IMG/VR virus record: IMGVR_UViG_2728369607_000007
Location: 1 to 50,260 of that record
DNA: 50,260 nucleotides
Strand: one strand, 5' to 3'
DNA from: a virus
Lineage: Duplodnaviria > Heunggongvirae > Uroviricota > Caudoviricetes
In this document: piece by piece, positions 32,653 through 48,714 of the stretch
Numbering within the stretch: the first letter of the stretch is position 1
Layout of the letters: each line of letters starts with the position of its first letter
Program-made: the position numbers and the translations under genes
The notes under the pieces: generated by a model
Told to the model about the DNA's origin: nothing
Seen by the model: the letters and a program-made list of their open reading frames with translations, nothing else
Databases searched by the model: none

Positions 32653-32673
32653 CGGTGTAGTTAATGGTGTAGT
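32653..32673 (+). repeat. attL core direct repeat CGGTGTAGTTAATGGTGTAGT
   Basis: Identical 21-mer recurs at 48694-48714; flanking sequence also similar (~35 bp imperfect). Confidence 0.7.
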
Positions 32674-32699
32674 TAATTGTGATGACCGGATTCAAAATT

Positions 32700-33929
32700 A
32701 TGAGCAGAGCACTTAACAAACTGAGCGATACACAGCTGAGGAAAATCAACGGCACACCCGCCCAAAAAACAGCCTTTCTTAATGACGGTGGAAACCTGAG
32801 CGTCAGGCATTCAACCAGTGGCCTTTTAACCTGGTATTTCACTTACAGGGCCGGAACGGGAAGGGGGGCACCACCGGAACGCATTAAGCTGGGAAATTAT
32901 CCTGATCTGAGCCTGAAATCAGCCAGGGAAAAAGCCGCCCAGTGTCGCGCATGGCTGGCAGAGGGGAAAAATCCACGTCATGAAATGAATTACACCGTAC
33001 AGGAAGCGTTAAAGCCGGTAACGGTTGGCGATGCGCTCACCTACTGGCTTGAGTCGTACGCAAAGGAAAACCGTGTGGATTATGACCCACTGAAAAAGCG
33101 GCTAAATAATCACGTAATACAGCACATTGGCCCTATGCCGCTGGATAAATGCGAGCTACGGCACTGGCTGGCCTGTTTTGATCGGGTGGCAAAGAAAGCC
33201 CCTGTTTCCGCCGGGTTCCTGCTACAGACATGCAAGCAGGCGCTTAAGTTCTGCAGGAAGCGGCGCTATGCAATCAGCAACGTTCTTGATGATATGAGTG
33301 TGGCGGACGTTGGGAAAAAACCGGATATAAGTGAGCGTGTCTTAAGTAACAAAGAACTTGGCGAATTATTGCAGGCACTGGACAAAAAAATATTTTCCCC
33401 TTACTACGTCGCACTAATCCGCCTCCTGATTGTTTTCGGATGCCGGACAGTAGAACTGAGGTTATCGGAGATCGGCGAGTGGGATTTTACCGAAATGCTC
33501 TGGACCGTTCCGAAGGAGCACAGCAAAACGAAGGTAGCCATATTCCGGCCCATACCGGAAGCGATACTGCCGTTCGTCACGCAGCTGGTGGAGCAGAACA
33601 GGCACACGGGCTTATTGCTGGGGGAAGTGAAACAGGAAACCAGCGTATCGCAGTACGGCAGATTAGCGCACAGGAGGCTAAAACACCCTCAATGGTCATT
33701 GCATGACATCCGGCGCACCTTTACAACCATGCTGAACGATTTAGGCGTTGATCCTCACGTCGTGGAGCAGCTTACAGGCCACCAGATGCCAGGAATGCAA
33801 CGCGTGTACAACCATTCCCGCTATATTGATGCGAAACGCAATGCGCTTGATATGTGGGTGGAGCGGTTGGAGATACTGGCGGGAACACATGAAAACGTAA
33901 CCACGCTACCAGTAACCAGAATAAAATAA
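32700..33929 (+). CDS. int: Tyrosine site-specific integrase (P4-like)
   Basis: C-terminal catalytic motifs (…HDIRRTF…, …GHQMPGMQRVYNHSRY…); adjacent to attL. Confidence 0.85.
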   Translation: MSRALNKLSDTQLRKINGTPAQKTAFLNDGGNLSVRHSTSGLLTWYFTYRAGTGRGAPPERIKLGNYPDLSLKSAREKAAQCRAWLAEGKNPRHEMNYTVQEALKPVTVGDALTYWLESYAKENRVDYDPLKKRLNNHVIQHIGPMPLDKCELRHWLACFDRVAKKAPVSAGFLLQTCKQALKFCRKRRYAISNVLDDMSVADVGKKPDISERVLSNKELGELLQALDKKIFSPYYVALIRLLIVFGCRTVELRLSEIGEWDFTEMLWTVPKEHSKTKVAIFRPIPEAILPFVTQLVEQNRHTGLLLGEVKQETSVSQYGRLAHRRLKHPQWSLHDIRRTFTTMLNDLGVDPHVVEQLTGHQMPGMQRVYNHSRYIDAKRNALDMWVERLEILAGTHENVTTLPVTRIK

Positions 33930-34118
33930 TTTTTTTCGTGTTTTTTCAGTATGCGCATACTGGATAAGTGCACAGATACAACGTGAAACAATGTGCAACA
34001 ACGTGACACAATCACGAACAAGAGGCCAAAAAGAATACAGATTTGTAAGTTACTGATTTTTAATGCTCAGCTGGTTTTTTATACATTAGTGAATTACGCG
34101 TTAAAGCGTGCGAAAAAA

Positions 34119-34149
34119 GGCATAAAACAAGATTTTATGCCTTTGTATT
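34119..34149 (+). terminator. Rho-independent terminator downstream of int
   Basis: GGCATAAAA-caaga-TTTTATGCC followed by TTTGTATT. Confidence 0.6.
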
Positions 34150-34303
34150 AACATGAATTTAAATGATTTTATCCTGATTGTTCCTCTTTCTGTAAACCAT
34201 GCGACACCAACATTTGCCAACTCTGAATCATCCTGACACAATCAGACACATCCCAACGCAATAGAACACGAAATAACTCTTTAAGAAACGAAAGGGGGCA
34301 ATA

Positions 34304-34492
34304 GTGTTAAGCACTGATCGGTTTATACGTGAAAAAGAATGCGAAAAGCTAACAGGCCTTAGCCGCTCATGCCGCTACCGCCTGGAAAAGGCCGGACAAT
34401 TCCCATCACGTCGTAAACTTGGTGGGCGTTCTGTTGGCTGGTCTTTATCTGAGGTTTTGGCCTGGAAGGATAGCTGCAAGGCAGTTCACTAA
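34304..34492 (+). CDS. alpA: AlpA-family transcriptional regulator/excisionase (62 aa)
   Basis: GTG start with GGGGG RBS; HTH pattern typical of AlpA/Vis (…KLTGLSRS..YRLEKAG.FP…). Confidence 0.7.
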   Translation: MLSTDRFIREKECEKLTGLSRSCRYRLEKAGQFPSRRKLGGRSVGWSLSEVLAWKDSCKAVH

Positions 34493-47655: not shown

Positions 47656-47668
47656 TGAGGTCAGCAGC

Positions 47669-47950
47669 ATGACAGAAGCCGAAATACTGCGATTAATCCG
47701 CCGCGTCTCTGGAATCAGCCAGCAGGCTGACGAACAGACCACGCAGCCGGACAGCGTGACAGCCGAAAATTATGCGCGTGTTGTTGCTGAGGTGATGCGC
47801 CGTGATGGTATCCAGCTTAATGATGCGGATATGCGCGACATACGGATCCGCGTTCTGGAAATGCTGGCCTACAATCGCCGCGTTGAACTGTATCGGGAGA
47901 AGGAGAAAATCACGTACCACTGGAAGAAGCCGGAGCGGTTACGGCGGTAA
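47669..47950 (+). CDS. Hypothetical protein (93 aa)
   Basis: ORF-track ATG directly after TerL. Confidence 0.4.
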   Translation: MTEAEILRLIRRVSGISQQADEQTTQPDSVTAENYARVVAEVMRRDGIQLNDADMRDIRIRVLEMLAYNRRVELYREKEKITYHWKKPERLRR

Positions 47951-48334
47951 CTTGTTGATTAAAAGGCGGCTCAATTCTGAGCTGGGTAGCTGACGGCGGT
48001 AACTGTTTGATATTCCCGATAACGCAAAATTGCGCTGGCTACATCCCTCACATCTGAGGACTGTTAACCAGCAGGCCGGAATATATTCACAAACTACGAA
48101 ATTTTCGTAGTTTAATTACTCGCCAGTTTATCGTTAACTAGTTGATATTTTCGGAAACCTCAATTTGAGGAAGTCGGCGCGGTAACTGTTTTATATTCCC
48201 GATAGCGCAAAAATGCGCGGTCGGGCAGAATGAGCACCACCTCAATCGTGACGGAGAGTGACAACCAGTGACACACCGTGACAAAAAGACGGTTTAACCG
48301 TTCATTAAAAATCGACGTGATTTTGTGCTTTCCG

Positions 48335-48362
48335 GATGACGTGGCCAACGTCATTTTTTAGC
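48335..48362 (+). terminator. Hairpin GATGACGT-ggcca-ACGTCAT followed by T-run
   Basis: Seen directly. Confidence 0.5.
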
Positions 48363-48693
48363 GAAAAATTCTGATTAAGGTCACTGGCTGAATGGTCATA
48401 ATGACCACGCAGACCATCGAGGCAACCATAGCGATCATCGTTACGGTTGGAGCTTTTCCGCCATTGGTGGAAAAGGTGCACATCTGGATCATCATTACGG
48501 TGATCAAGGGTATGTAAAACCCACCAGCCTGATTAAAGGTTAACCGGAAAAAAAATCCGGTAGCCCCGTTATGGGGATCCCCATATCGACATTAACGCCC
48601 CTCATGAATTGGTGCGCTTCCCCCTGGAAAGATTACCCGCCTGTATATTTCTTGTGTCTATTTGTTCCACGTTGTTTCATACAGTGCACCGAA

Positions 48694-48714
48694 CGGTGTA
48701 GTTAATGGTGTAGT
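48694..48714 (+). repeat. attR core direct repeat CGGTGTAGTTAATGGTGTAGT
   Basis: Identical to 32653-32673. Confidence 0.7.

What the first reader, a model, noticed from the sequence alone, without database searches (positions are those of the whole stretch)
32653..48714. Capsid-encoding, tail-less satellite island integrated between roxA and phoQ
A ~16 kb element is bounded by identical 21-bp direct repeats (32653-32673 and 48694-48714). It encodes integrase, AlpA, a RepA-like ATPase with iterons, SSB, and a complete HK97-type head and packaging set (major capsid, protease, portal, adaptor, connector, HNH, TerS, TerL), but no tail, holin or endolysin genes. That content fits a satellite that builds its own DNA-filled capsids and must take tails and lysis from a helper phage, comparable to capsid-forming PICIs (from memory). 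The lambdoid prophage in the same window is only one conceivable helper.
Basis: partly seen in the sequence, partly recalled or inferred. Interest (0 to 1): 0.75.

Follow-up and report, generated by a model that had tools for sequence, protein, structure and literature searches.

The report
Known capsid-forming phage satellite (cf-PICI)

Summary
Its head and packaging proteins are 98-100% identical to those of EcCIEDL933, the experimentally characterised prototype cf-PICI. That prototype sits at the same roxA-phoQ site in E. coli O157:H7 EDL933. The capsid protein matches its cryo-EM structure, PDB 9GYI.

One correction concerns the ends. The 21-bp repeats are not the ends of the element. Island-free E. 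coli lack them. The insertion is 16,273 bp and is flanked by a 10-bp duplication, GGACATATTT (32519-32528 and 48792-48801). The rebuilt attP has a perfect 8-bp inverted repeat around a 7-bp spacer. The 21-bp repeats lie 125 and 78 bp inside the ends and are probably integrase arm sites.

Compared with the prototype, this variant carries a RepA-type helicase with its own iterons instead of a DUF927 replicase. It also has an isrK/C4 antisense-RNA unit upstream of icd that the prototype lacks, and a second small minus-strand gene pair.

The neighbouring lambda-type prophage is a separate, complete phage and looks a poor candidate tail donor.

Verdict: already known, low interest.

The parts
32519..32533 (+). 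attL crossover region: GGACATA (proposed overlap) followed by TTTTATCA (core-type half-site). The duplicated 10-mer GGACATATTT is 32519-32528.
   Evidence: Junction defined against K-12 and thousands of empty sites. The attP reconstruction shows TGATAAAA-GGACATA-TTTTATCA.
32604..32678 (+).
   Evidence: (D4). Assignment as integrase arm-type or AlpA sites is inferred.
32700..33929 (+). Tyrosine integrase, P4 type, 409 aa.
   Evidence: Pfam Arm-DNA-bind_3 5.5e-18 and Phage_integrase 2.4e-16. 95.4% identical to the EcCIEDL933 integrase.
33978..34011 (-). Three phased TTGTnnCAcgTTGT units between int and alpA.
   Evidence: (I1).
34304..34492 (+). AlpA regulator, 62 aa.
   Evidence: Pfam Phage_AlpA 5e-18. 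96.8% identical to EcCIEDL933 AlpA. alpA is required for induction and transfer of the prototype.
34736..35176 (-). Small gene pair 1: Arc-like ribbon-helix-helix protein (34997-35176) and a 67-aa ORF (34736-34939).
   Evidence: PHROG 228 Arc-like repressor 1.5e-6 and phrog_21027. 45-50% identical homologues in EcCIEDL933.
35397..35900 (-). Small gene pair 2: YlcI/YnfO-family protein (35682-35900) and a 75-aa ORF (35397-35624). This is a diverged tandem copy of pair 1.
   Evidence: phrog_949 2.6e-18. YlcI/YnfO annotation in L001. The 75-nt intergenic block is 84% conserved between the pairs (D2, D17, D18).
36183..36368 (+). isrK-like RNA (36183-36259) and C4 antisense RNA (36281-36368).
   Evidence: Rfam RF01394 at 66 bits (cut-off 50) and RF01695 at 77.6 bits (cut-off 45). 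Absent from EcCIEDL933 and from the Nissle PICI. Loop complementarity to the icd ribosome-binding region.
36423..36608 (+). Icd-like cell-division inhibitor ORF.
   Evidence: PGAP annotation of the homologue in L001. 84% identical to the EDL933 Icd-like protein. Start codon located.
36548..37806 (+). Run of small conserved ORFs of unknown function, ending with a DUF4222 protein (37507-37806).
   Evidence: PHROGs of unknown function. Pfam DUF4222 2.1e-23.
37803..39212 (+). RepA-family helicase, the replication initiator, 469 aa.
   Evidence: Pfam AAA_25 1e-43. phrog_2850 1.6e-223. Only its N-terminal 121 aa (46% identity) match the 710-aa DUF927 replicase of EcCIEDL933.
39213..39401 (+). Putative replication origin: six AAAGTGAG iterons (one inverted) plus degenerate copies around an AT-rich spacer.
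   Evidence: 7 in the window, 6 of them here; 1.29 expected.
39397..39977 (+). Two conserved ORFs of unknown function, 89 aa and 104 aa.
   Evidence: phrog_1231 and phrog_27268.
39987..40397 (+). Single-stranded DNA-binding protein.
   Evidence: Pfam SSB 1.4e-15.
40408..40656 (+). PerC-family transcriptional activator, followed by a terminator-like hairpin at 40679-40696.
   Evidence: Pfam PerC 3.2e-35. Terminator scan.
40798..41022 (+). Conserved 74-aa ORF, followed by a terminator-like hairpin at 41033-41050.
   Evidence: phrog_1957 1.5e-39.
41074..41097 (+). Two phased TTGTTCCACGTTGT-type units upstream of the capsid operon.
   Evidence: exact match at 41084-41097.
41314..42471 (+). HK97-fold major capsid protein, 385 aa.
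   Evidence: Pfam Phage_capsid 1.6e-61. 99.2% identical to the EcCIEDL933 protein. PDB 9GYI at E=7e-255, which is the EcCIEDL933 T=4 capsid.
42511..43083 (+). Prohead serine protease.
   Evidence: Pfam Peptidase_S78 4e-48. 98.4% identical to the prototype.
43085..44296 (+). Portal protein.
   Evidence: Pfam Phage_portal 2.3e-90. 99.5% identical to the prototype.
44293..44631 (+). Head closure protein Hc1.
   Evidence: Pfam Phage_HCP 1.1e-22. PHROG 25 head closure Hc1. 100% identical to the prototype. 47% identical to HK106 Hc1.
44628..44924 (+). Head-tail adaptor Ad1 (gp6-like).
   Evidence: Pfam Phage_connect_1 8.4e-12. PHROG 40 Ad1. 100% identical to the prototype.
44924..45364 (+). HNH endonuclease, the packaging accessory of HK97-type cos systems.
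   Evidence: Pfam HNH 1.8e-8. 99.3% identical to the prototype.
45348..45530 (+). Conserved 60-aa ORF.
   Evidence: phrog_3173 7.5e-37. Annotated in L001 and L002.
45531..45653 (+). Inferred position of the cos site, in the gap between the HNH-side ORF and terS.
   Evidence: Inference only. It rests on the HK97/HK106 layout, with HNH at the right end of the record and terS at the left, and on the linear ends of the 16.5-kb cf-PICI-like record LR881103. Not mapped.
45654..46010 (+). Small terminase (P27 / Terminase_4 family).
   Evidence: Pfam Terminase_4 1.3e-23. 99.2% identical to the prototype.
45994..47655 (+). Large terminase.
   Evidence: Pfam TerL_ATPase 1.3e-25 and TerL_nuclease 1.6e-50. 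98.0% identical to the prototype.
47669..47950 (+). Conserved 93-aa ORF, the last gene of the operon. It is also the last gene of the classical PICI in Nissle 1917.
   Evidence: phrog_1561 1.5e-55. 93.5% identical to the EDL933 protein and 90.3% to the Nissle protein.
47951..48791 (+). Non-coding right arm. It holds three to four GGTAACTGTTTGATATT-type repeats (47945-48218), four phased GTGAC units (48250-48285), the right repeat block 48645-48719 containing the 21-bp repeat 48694-48714, a fifth GGTGTAGT at 48777-48784, and the core half-site TGATAAAA at 48784-48791.
   Evidence: (D3, D4, D15). The two minus-strand ORFs here have no family match.
48792..48801 (+). attR copy of the duplicated core GGACATATTT. 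It overlaps the phoQ stop codon (48800-48802) by 2 nt.

Best explanation
This is an integrated capsid-forming phage-inducible chromosomal island (cf-PICI) of the EcCIEDL933 lineage. One unit is 16,273 bp and can be written as 32519-48791 or 32529-48801.

Shown by sequence:
- It sits at the EcCIEDL933 attachment site between roxA and phoQ.
- It has a P4-type integrase, AlpA, a replication module (RepA-type helicase, iteron origin, SSB) and a complete HK97-type head and packaging operon.
- It has no tail or lysis genes.

Inferred from experiments on the near-identical prototype:
- A helper phage triggers alpA expression, and AlpA drives excision and expression of the island operons.
- The island replicates from its own origin.
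- Its capsid protein, protease and portal build small T=4 capsids of about 47 nm.
- TerS, TerL and HNH cut at the island's own cos site and package unit-length island DNA into those capsids.
- Hc1 and Ad1 close the portal vertex and dock a siphovirus tail made by another phage, and the helper lyses the cell.
- Hc1 and Ad1 are 100% identical to those of EcCIEDL933, so HK106/HK97-type tails are the predicted partners.

Inferred from this sequence alone:
- Integration and excision cross over within GGACATA, which is flanked in attP by the inverted half-sites TGATAAAA and TTTTATCA.
- The adjacent 10-bp-phased TTGT arrays may be AlpA sites.
For: - The packaging module has 100% coverage and 97.6% DNA identity to EDL933. 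Per-protein identity is 98-100% for capsid, protease, portal, Hc1, Ad1, HNH, TerS and TerL. It is 95% for the integrase and 97% for AlpA.
- The chromosomal site is the same in EDL933.
- All family assignments come from Pfam and PHROGs.
- The capsid protein matches PDB 9GYI at E=7e-255. That entry is the EcCIEDL933 capsid.
- The prototype's biology is published. Mutations in its packaging genes abolished transfer, or severely reduced it for gene 1792. Helper capsid mutants still transfer the island, and helper tail mutants abolish transfer. Adaptor and connector proteins set tail specificity. The capsid is T=4, 47.5 nm, and holds 15.5 kb.
- The empty-site comparison defines the junctions and the 10-bp duplication.
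- A different PICI in Nissle 1917, whose integrase remnant is only 31% identical, joins phoQ at the same GGACATATTT.
- The attP palindrome is seen.
- GGTGTAGT occurs five times, only at the island ends, against 0.65 expected.
- A module at least 80% covered occurs in 407 of 5,426 complete E. coli genomes. The whole island is at least 80% covered in 60 genomes.
Against: - Nothing has been tested in this strain. Induction, excision, capsid formation and transfer are extrapolated from EcCIEDL933.
- The replication initiator and origin differ from the prototype, and the region between alpA and icd differs. Helper specificity for induction and replication competence are therefore not guaranteed.
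- The closest relative, JNE141411, has a frameshifted integrase. That shows members of this lineage do decay.
- The cos site is not mapped.
- The arm-site and AlpA-site assignments are inferences from motif distribution.
Confidence: 0.9

Rival explanations
1. A decayed prophage remnant: a once-complete HK97-like temperate phage that lost its tail and lysis genes and is now inert.
For: The head and packaging genes belong to HK97-type phage families. Tail and lysis genes are absent.
Against: - The same tail-less architecture, with intact reading frames, is conserved in 407 of 5,426 complete genomes.
- It matches an element shown experimentally to be a functional satellite.
- The left half is PICI-type (P4-type integrase, AlpA, Icd, DUF4222, replicase, iterons) and is not a lambdoid immunity and replication region.
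- In 50,697 phage records, only six match the module. None covers 80% of it, all are at 60-80% identity, and most of the six are satellite-sized or fragmentary records.
- The size fits the T=4 capsid of the prototype.
Confidence: 0.03
2. A genuine cf-PICI by descent that is no longer mobile in this strain. Possible causes are an incompatible swapped replicon, loss of cos, or no available inducing or tail-donating helper.
For: - The replicase and origin differ from the tested prototype.
- A near relative has a frameshifted integrase.
- In EDL933 the resident prophages mobilised the prototype only poorly.
- The neighbouring prophage has lambda-type Z and U tail proteins and no homologues of the HK106 tail-completion and tail-terminator proteins.
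Against: - Every island gene examined is full length.
- The exact RepA sequence occurs on 43 contigs, and its 90%-identity cluster has 940 members. The iteron origin next to it is intact. Together these suggest a working, circulating module.
- Replicase modules are known to be exchanged among PICIs and cf-PICIs (PMC10085698).
Confidence: 0.12
3. One reading: the 21-bp direct repeats are the att core at which the integrase recombines, so the mobile unit is 16,041 bp.
For: The repeats are exact, statistically improbable and close to both ends.
Against: - Excision at the 21-bp repeat would leave about 220 bp of island-associated DNA with one repeat copy between roxA and phoQ. None of 5,426 genomes has such a site, while thousands have the K-12-type site.
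- K-12 has no copy of the repeat.
- The joined ends form a canonical core (8-bp inverted repeats around a 7-bp spacer) at GGACATATTT and not at the 21-mer.
- A second island type shares only the GGACATATTT junction.
- The 21-mer is itself a tandem 12-mer, which is typical of arm-type sites.
Confidence: 0.04

Closest known systems
EcCIEDL933, the prototype capsid-forming PICI of E. coli O157:H7 EDL933 (Alqurainy et al., bioRxiv 10.1101/2022.09.08.507074; He et al., bioRxiv 10.1101/2025.02.11.637232; capsid PDB 9GYI)
   Same: - Same roxA-phoQ integration site, same GGACATATTT duplication and same 21-bp arm repeats.
- Integrase 95% and AlpA 97% identical.
- Capsid, protease, portal, Hc1, Ad1, HNH, TerS and TerL 98-100% identical.
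- Same gene order and the same lack of tail and lysis genes.
   Different: - The replication initiator is a 469-aa RepA/AAA_25 helicase, not the 710-aa DUF927 protein. Only the first 121 aa are related, at 46% identity, and the downstream origin differs.
- An extra 104-aa ORF (39663-39977).
- An isrK/C4 RNA unit upstream of icd that the prototype lacks.
- Two minus-strand small-gene pairs instead of one.
- SSB, PerC and DUF4222 are only 78-84% identical.
- The unit is 16.27 kb against 15.4-15.5 kb.
Classical Gram-negative PICIs (EcCICFT073 type), for example the island at the same site in E. coli Nissle 1917
   Same: - Same attB junction next to phoQ.
- Shared left-half genes: DUF4222 is 100% identical, small ORFs are 78-92% identical, and an SSB is present.
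- Shared last gene, 90% identical.
- AlpA-type regulation.
   Different: - Classical PICIs lack portal, protease, adaptor, connector, HNH and TerL. They remodel or redirect helper capsids instead.
- The Nissle island has only a capsid-like gene, a decoration protein and a terS-like gene.
- SatelliteFinder treats portal, adaptor and connector as forbidden for PICI (PMC10085698).
Phage HK97 and HK106 (the helper of EcCIEDL933)
   Same: HK97-fold capsid with protease maturation, an HNH-dependent cos terminase system, and an Ad1/Hc1 head-completion pair. Hc1 is 47% identical to HK106 Hc1.
   Different: - TerL and portal are only about 26% identical. The capsid protein, protease, TerS and Ad1 gave no hit at E<=1e-3.
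- The gene order differs.
- There are no tail, lysis or lambdoid regulatory genes.
- The prototype capsid is T=4, against T=7 for HK97.
Satellite phage P4 and the phage P1 immI region
   Same: P4-type integrase, AlpA-family regulator, and unidirectional operon layout. The C4/CI-type antisense RNA placed just upstream of icd matches the P1 c4-icd arrangement.
   Different: No P4 sid, psu, delta or alpha primase genes were identified among the island ORFs. No ant gene follows icd. The island makes its own capsids, whereas P4 resizes P2 capsids.

Membership tests
cf-PICI (capsid-forming PICI) | PICI-type left half: integrase at the left end, a regulator (AlpA in Proteobacteria) and a replication module, transcribed rightward | tested here: met
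   Integrase, AlpA, RepA-family helicase, iterons and SSB are all on the + strand. Integrase and AlpA are 95-97% identical to the prototype.
cf-PICI (capsid-forming PICI) | Own capsid morphogenesis genes: major capsid protein, prohead protease, portal | tested here: met
   Pfam Phage_capsid, Peptidase_S78 and Phage_portal. 98-99.5% identical to the prototype. PDB 9GYI match.
cf-PICI (capsid-forming PICI) | Head-tail adaptor and connector (head closure) genes | tested here: met
   PHROG Ad1 and Hc1; Pfam Phage_connect_1 and Phage_HCP. 100% identical to the prototype.
cf-PICI (capsid-forming PICI) | Own packaging enzymes: HNH, TerS and TerL | tested here: met
   Pfam HNH, Terminase_4, TerL_ATPase and TerL_nuclease.
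cf-PICI (capsid-forming PICI) | No tail module and no lysis (holin) genes within the element | tested here: met
   No such family matched any island ORF in the Pfam, PHROGs or PADLOC scans. The tail and lysis genes in the window belong to a separate, complete prophage ending near 27.1 kb. It is separated from the island by potB, potA, pepT and roxA.
cf-PICI (capsid-forming PICI) | Size about 10-18 kb, matching the small capsid | tested here: met
   16,273 bp between the duplicated cores. The size criterion is from 10.1101/2025.02.11.637232.
cf-PICI (capsid-forming PICI) | Helper-phage-dependent, AlpA-dependent induction; production of small island-encoded capsids that package only island DNA; transfer dependent on helper tails | not testable with these tools
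   Shown for EcCIEDL933 and extrapolated here from 98-100% protein identity.
cf-PICI (capsid-forming PICI) | Detection by the SatelliteFinder cfPICI model (11 core components; tail and holin forbidden) | not tested
   SatelliteFinder is not available here. By hand, all 11 components appear to be present, provided the RepA helicase matches one of its five primase-replicase profiles.
Classical PICI | Absence of phage structural genes such as portal, adaptor and connector; dependence on helper capsid proteins | tested here: not met
   Portal, Ad1, Hc1, protease and TerL are present.
Temperate prophage (complete or defective) | Tail and lysis modules, or recognisable remnants of them, contiguous with the head genes | tested here: not met
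   None lies between 32519 and 48801.
P4-like satellite | psu, delta and sid capsid-size genes and an alpha primase-helicase | tested here: not met
   No island ORF was assigned to such a function in the Pfam or PHROGs scans. Only the integrase type, AlpA and the C4-like RNA are shared.

The most novel reading that the evidence does not exclude
This variant, unlike the prototype EcCIEDL933, may keep its icd-replication operon silent with a P1 immI-type antisense RNA. The C4 RNA (36281-36368) has loop sequences complementary to TTGGCGT (36208 and 36373) and to ACACTGA, which overlaps the icd Shine-Dalgarno sequence at 36403-36413. This is the two-target layout of the P1 c4-icd system. If it works this way, a cf-PICI would carry an RNA-based immunity layer in addition to AlpA control. 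Helper induction would then have to overcome that layer. [quoted passage not shown]
Probability: 0.3. Interest if true: 0.4.

Novelty: already known. Interest (0 to 1): 0.15.

Why it matters
cf-PICIs matter because they release DNA-filled, tail-less capsids that can pick up tails from different phages and so move genes between strains and species. This copy adds no new principle. It is a mosaic variant of the published prototype at the published site, and related islands occur in about 7% of complete E. coli genomes.

Three things here are of modest use. First, the attachment site is defined precisely: a 10-bp core with an inverted-repeat core structure, and the conspicuous 21-bp repeats lie inside the arms. 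Second, the replicon and the region upstream of icd are swapped while the tail-docking proteins stay 100% identical. That predicts the prototype's tail specificity (HK106-type) with possibly different induction control. Third, the variant-specific C4/isrK RNA unit could be tested as a repressor.

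Tried and rejected
- **Empty site with one 21-bp repeat.** I searched a composite of the left flank up to the repeat joined to the right flank after it. None of 5,426 genomes has it, so the repeats are not the att core.
- **Source phage.** I looked for a complete phage carrying this head module in 50,697 phage records. Only six weak matches (60-80% identity) were found, most of them to satellite-sized or fragmentary records.
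- **Neighbouring prophage as tail donor.** It is lambda-type, with gpA terminase, a lambda-family portal and Z/U/V/G/H/L/K/I/J tail proteins. It has no homologue of the HK106 gp10-family or tail-terminator proteins. This is not excluded, but nothing supports it.
- **PerC homologue as PchE.** I tried to link the island's PerC homologue to PchE of O157:H7, recalled from memory as possibly lying in prophage-like element SpLE2. Three papers and a cluster-name look-up gave no locus information. This stays unverified.
- **Defence genes.** PADLOC on the unassigned ORFs gave nothing credible. The only hit was a Cas8g match at E=6e-4 on a 67-aa ORF, which I take to be chance.
- **Published att core.** The PICI papers do not give an att core sequence for this site in their text, and the relevant tables are images.
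- **Promoters.** Promoter-like matches in the island are no more frequent than in shuffled sequence: 14 against 18.2 expected. I base no promoter claims on them.

Full report
**1. Checking the observation**

The 21-mer CGGTGTAGTTAATGGTGTAGT occurs exactly twice in the window, at 32653-32673 and 48694-48714. By my own arithmetic, a chance exact 21-mer pair in 50 kb is expected about 3e-4 times. The similarity extends to a 75-nt imperfect direct repeat of 77% identity, 32604-32678 versus 48645-48719 (D4).

- tyrosine integrase with an arm-DNA-binding domain (32700-33929)
- AlpA (34304-34492)
- AAA_25 RepA-family helicase (37803-39212)
- SSB (39987-40397)
- HK97-type major capsid protein (41314-42471)
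- S78 prohead protease (42511-43083)
- portal (43085-44296)
- head closure Hc1 (44293-44631)
- adaptor Ad1 (44628-44924)
- HNH (44924-45364)
- TerS of the P27/Terminase_4 family (45654-46010)
- TerL (45994-47655)

The iterons are real. AAAGTGAG occurs six times within 39213-39401, immediately after repA, against 1.29 expected in the whole window. No ORF of 50 aa or more in the island matched a tail, holin or endolysin family. The flanking genes are roxA (31330-32460, minus strand) and phoQ (48800-50260, minus strand).

**2. The true ends of the element**

The empty roxA-phoQ site of K-12 MG1655 aligns to the window up to 32528 on the left and from 48792 on the right. K-12 reads ...GAAGTATGGGCATATTTATTCATC... 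with one copy of the 10-mer. The window has GGACATATTT at both junctions, 32519-32528 and 48792-48801. The right copy overlaps the phoQ stop codon by 2 nt. The insertion is therefore 16,273 bp.

K-12 has no copy of the 21-mer. I searched all 5,426 complete E. coli genomes with a composite 'scar' made of the left flank plus one 21-bp repeat plus the right flank. No genome covered 80% of it, while empty genomes gave the 228-bp K-12-type site at up to 100% identity.

E. coli Nissle 1917 carries a classical PICI at this locus. Its integrase remnant is only 31% identical to this integrase, and it has no 21-bp repeat. Its right junction is ...GATTCTTTC|GGACATATTT|ATTCATC..., which is the same point.

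Joining the island's right and left ends gives attP ...GGTGTAG TGATAAAA GGACATA TTTTATCA ATTAG.... This is a perfect 8-bp inverted repeat around a 7-bp spacer, the classic core of a tyrosine recombinase site.

GGTGTAGT occurs five times in the window, all on the + strand and all at the island ends, against 0.65 expected. The 21-mer is a tandem pair of GGTGTAGTTAAT. I conclude that the crossover lies in GGACATA. That last step is an inference.

**3. Identity of the element**

The head and packaging module (41314-47655) matches E. coli O157:H7 EDL933 (NZ_CP008957.1, 1688124-1694465) over 100% of its length at 97.6% identity. That EDL933 element lies between roxA and phoQ and has the same 21-bp repeats and the same GGACATATTT duplication. 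It is EcCIEDL933, the prototype of the capsid-forming PICIs.

Protein identities to EcCIEDL933:

| Protein | Identity |
|---|---|
| Capsid | 99.2% |
| Protease | 98.4% |
| Portal | 99.5% |
| Hc1 | 100% |
| Ad1 | 100% |
| HNH | 99.3% |
| TerS | 99.2% |
| TerL | 98.0% |
| Integrase | 95.4% |
| AlpA | 96.8% |

The capsid protein hits PDB 9GYI at E=7e-255. That entry is the deposited EcCIEDL933 capsid. The next-best solved relatives are the Rhodobacter gene transfer agent capsids.

The whole island is at least 80% covered in 60 of 5,426 complete genomes. The best match is strain JNE141411, at 97% coverage and 98.8% identity. The packaging module is at least 80% covered in 407 genomes. The exact capsid, RepA and PerC sequences are already in public databases on many contigs.

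**4. How it most likely works**

The following comes from published experiments on the prototype:
- Helper phages HK106 and HK446 induce it, and an alpA mutation abolishes induction and transfer.
- Mutations in the island packaging genes abolished island transfer, or severely reduced it for gene 1792, without affecting the phage.
- Helper capsid mutants still transfer the island, and helper tail mutants do not.
- The capsid is T=4, 47.5 nm, made of protease-matured HK97-fold protein, and holds 15.5 kb.
- Tail-less filled capsids are released, and the adaptor and connector proteins decide which tails fit. EcCIEDL933 used HK106 tails and not HK022 tails.

The following is inferred for this copy. 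It should follow the same cycle. Because its Hc1 and Ad1 are identical to the prototype's, it should need HK106/HK97-type tails. Its capsid protein carries the S-x-G-x-x-A-D maturation motif (STGVPAD).

The cos site is not mapped. I place it in the 123-bp gap 45531-45653 between the HNH-side ORF and terS. This is by analogy with HK97/HK106, where HNH lies at the right end of the record and terS at the left. In addition, the linear ends of a 16.5-kb cf-PICI-like particle record, LR881103, fall at that position. This is weak evidence.

Terminator-like hairpins follow perC (40679-40696), the next ORF (41033-41050) and the capsid gene (42481-42502). The packaging operon therefore probably has its own control region.

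A 10-bp-phased TTGTnnCAnn array occurs next to both arm repeats, between int and alpA (33978-34011, inverted) and upstream of the capsid gene (41074-41097). There are 13 matches at up to 3 mismatches, against 5.4 expected. I suggest these are AlpA sites linking excision to operon activation. This is untested.

**5. Differences from the prototype**

DNA alignment shows mosaicism. The int-alpA region is 89% identical and 39976-47959 is 96% identical, but 35.0-39.4 kb is largely unrelated.
- The replicase is a 469-aa RepA/AAA_25 helicase instead of a 710-aa DUF927 protein. Only the first 121 residues are related, at 46% identity.
- The window has isrK-like and C4 antisense RNAs at 36183-36259 and 36281-36368, at 66 and 77.6 bits. 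These are present in JNE141411 but absent from EcCIEDL933 and from the Nissle PICI.
- The C4 loop is complementary to TTGGCGT (36208, 36373) and to ACACTGA, which overlaps the icd Shine-Dalgarno sequence (36403-36413; icd ATG at 36423). This reproduces the phage P1 c4-icd layout as I know it from the P1 literature.
- There are two diverged minus-strand gene pairs where the prototype has one. Pair 1 is an Arc-like RHH protein plus a 67-aa ORF. Pair 2 is a YlcI/YnfO protein plus a 75-aa ORF. They share 84%-conserved intergenic sequence.

Exchange of regulator and replicase modules between PICIs and cf-PICIs is already documented (PMC10085698).

**6. The neighbouring prophage**

Window 1 to about 27.1 kb holds the late region of a lambda-type prophage. 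It has lysozyme, Rz, gpA-type terminase, a lambda-family portal, a ClpP-capsid fusion, tail proteins Z, U, V, G, H, L, K, I and J, and a tail fibre. It has its own head, tail and lysis genes. The chromosomal genes potB, potA, pepT and roxA separate it from the island, so its tail genes are not part of the island.

The tail-completion (gp10 family), tail-terminator and major tail proteins of HK106 gave no hit in the window at E<=1e-3. The island's Hc1 is 47% identical to HK106 Hc1. The prophage is therefore a poor candidate tail donor on present evidence, though it is not excluded. It could still act as an inducer.

**7. Rivals**

- **Decayed prophage.** This is unlikely. The tail-less architecture is conserved and intact in hundreds of genomes. 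The left half is PICI-type. Only six of 50,697 phage records match the module, none covers 80% of it, all are at 60-80% identity, and most are satellite-sized or fragmentary.
- **Non-mobile copy.** A genuine cf-PICI that is immobile here cannot be excluded without experiments. A close relative has a frameshifted integrase.
- **Crossover at the 21-bp repeats.** This is contradicted.

**8. Verdict**

It is already known, and interest is low (0.15). The items worth keeping are the corrected attachment site, the prediction of HK106-type tail specificity, and the variant-specific C4/isrK-icd unit as a candidate RNA repressor.

Noticed in passing
window 36183-36368 (targets at 36208-36214, 36225-36231, 36373-36379, 36403-36409): isrK-like and C4 antisense RNAs lie just upstream of the icd-like gene. 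The C4 loop is complementary to two upstream and two downstream sites, and the last site overlaps the icd ribosome-binding site, as in the P1 immI c4-icd system. The unit is present in this island and in JNE141411 but absent from the prototype EcCIEDL933 and from the Nissle PICI.
   Followed up: partly
window 32611-32650, 33978-34011 (minus strand), 41074-41097, 48652-48690: 10-bp-phased TTGTnnCAnn arrays (best unit TTGTTCCACGTTGT) occur at both island arms, between int and alpA, and upstream of the capsid operon. There are 13 matches at up to 3 mismatches, against 5.4 expected. They are candidate AlpA or excisionase binding arrays.
   Followed up: partly
window 34736-35900, minus strand: Two diverged tandem cassettes each hold a small ribbon-helix-helix-type gene (Arc-like, then YlcI/YnfO family) followed by a 67- or 75-aa ORF starting MTNN. 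The 75-nt intergenic blocks (84% identical) and the upstream blocks are conserved although the coding parts have diverged. Function is unknown and there was no defence-system match.
   Followed up: partly
window 47945-48285: The non-coding right arm holds three to four GGTAACTGTTTGATATT-type repeats, each followed by a short hairpin, and four GTGAC units at about 10-11-bp spacing. Related TAACCCGTTGATATTTTCG repeats directly abut the att core in the Nissle 1917 PICI. Their role (packaging, integration or termination) is unknown.
   Followed up: no
L004 (E. coli Nissle 1917, NZ_CP007799.1) 16125-26040: A classical PICI with a truncated, distantly related integrase occupies the same roxA-phoQ core. 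It shares DUF4222 (100% identical), several small ORFs and the last gene with the cf-PICI. This illustrates module sharing between PICI and cf-PICI at one att site.
   Followed up: partly
window 1-27100: This is the late region of a lambda-type prophage with a ClpP protease-capsid fusion ORF (9527-11698), a gpA terminase, a J-type tip protein of 1245 aa and a collagen-repeat tail fibre. It appears to be inserted next to potB, where Nissle 1917 has phage gene fragments between potC and potB.
   Followed up: partly
L001 (E. coli JNE141411) 1932-4529: In the closest relative of this island, both roxA and the island integrase are annotated as frameshifted pseudogenes. Here both are intact.
   Followed up: no
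L006 (LR881103.1, 'Escherichia phage vB_KppS-Ant', 16,548 bp): This record is deposited as a phage from an induced prophage but has cf-PICI size and gene order (terS, terL, int, regulator, primase, capsid, protease, portal, connectors, HNH). A 766-aa gene after terL is annotated as a tape measure protein, which may be a misannotated accessory gene.
   Followed up: no
window 40408-40656: The island carries a PerC-family activator, 83.6% identical to the one in EcCIEDL933. PerC homologues (Pch) regulate LEE, curli and flagella in O157:H7. I could not establish whether the island copy corresponds to pchE.
   Followed up: partly
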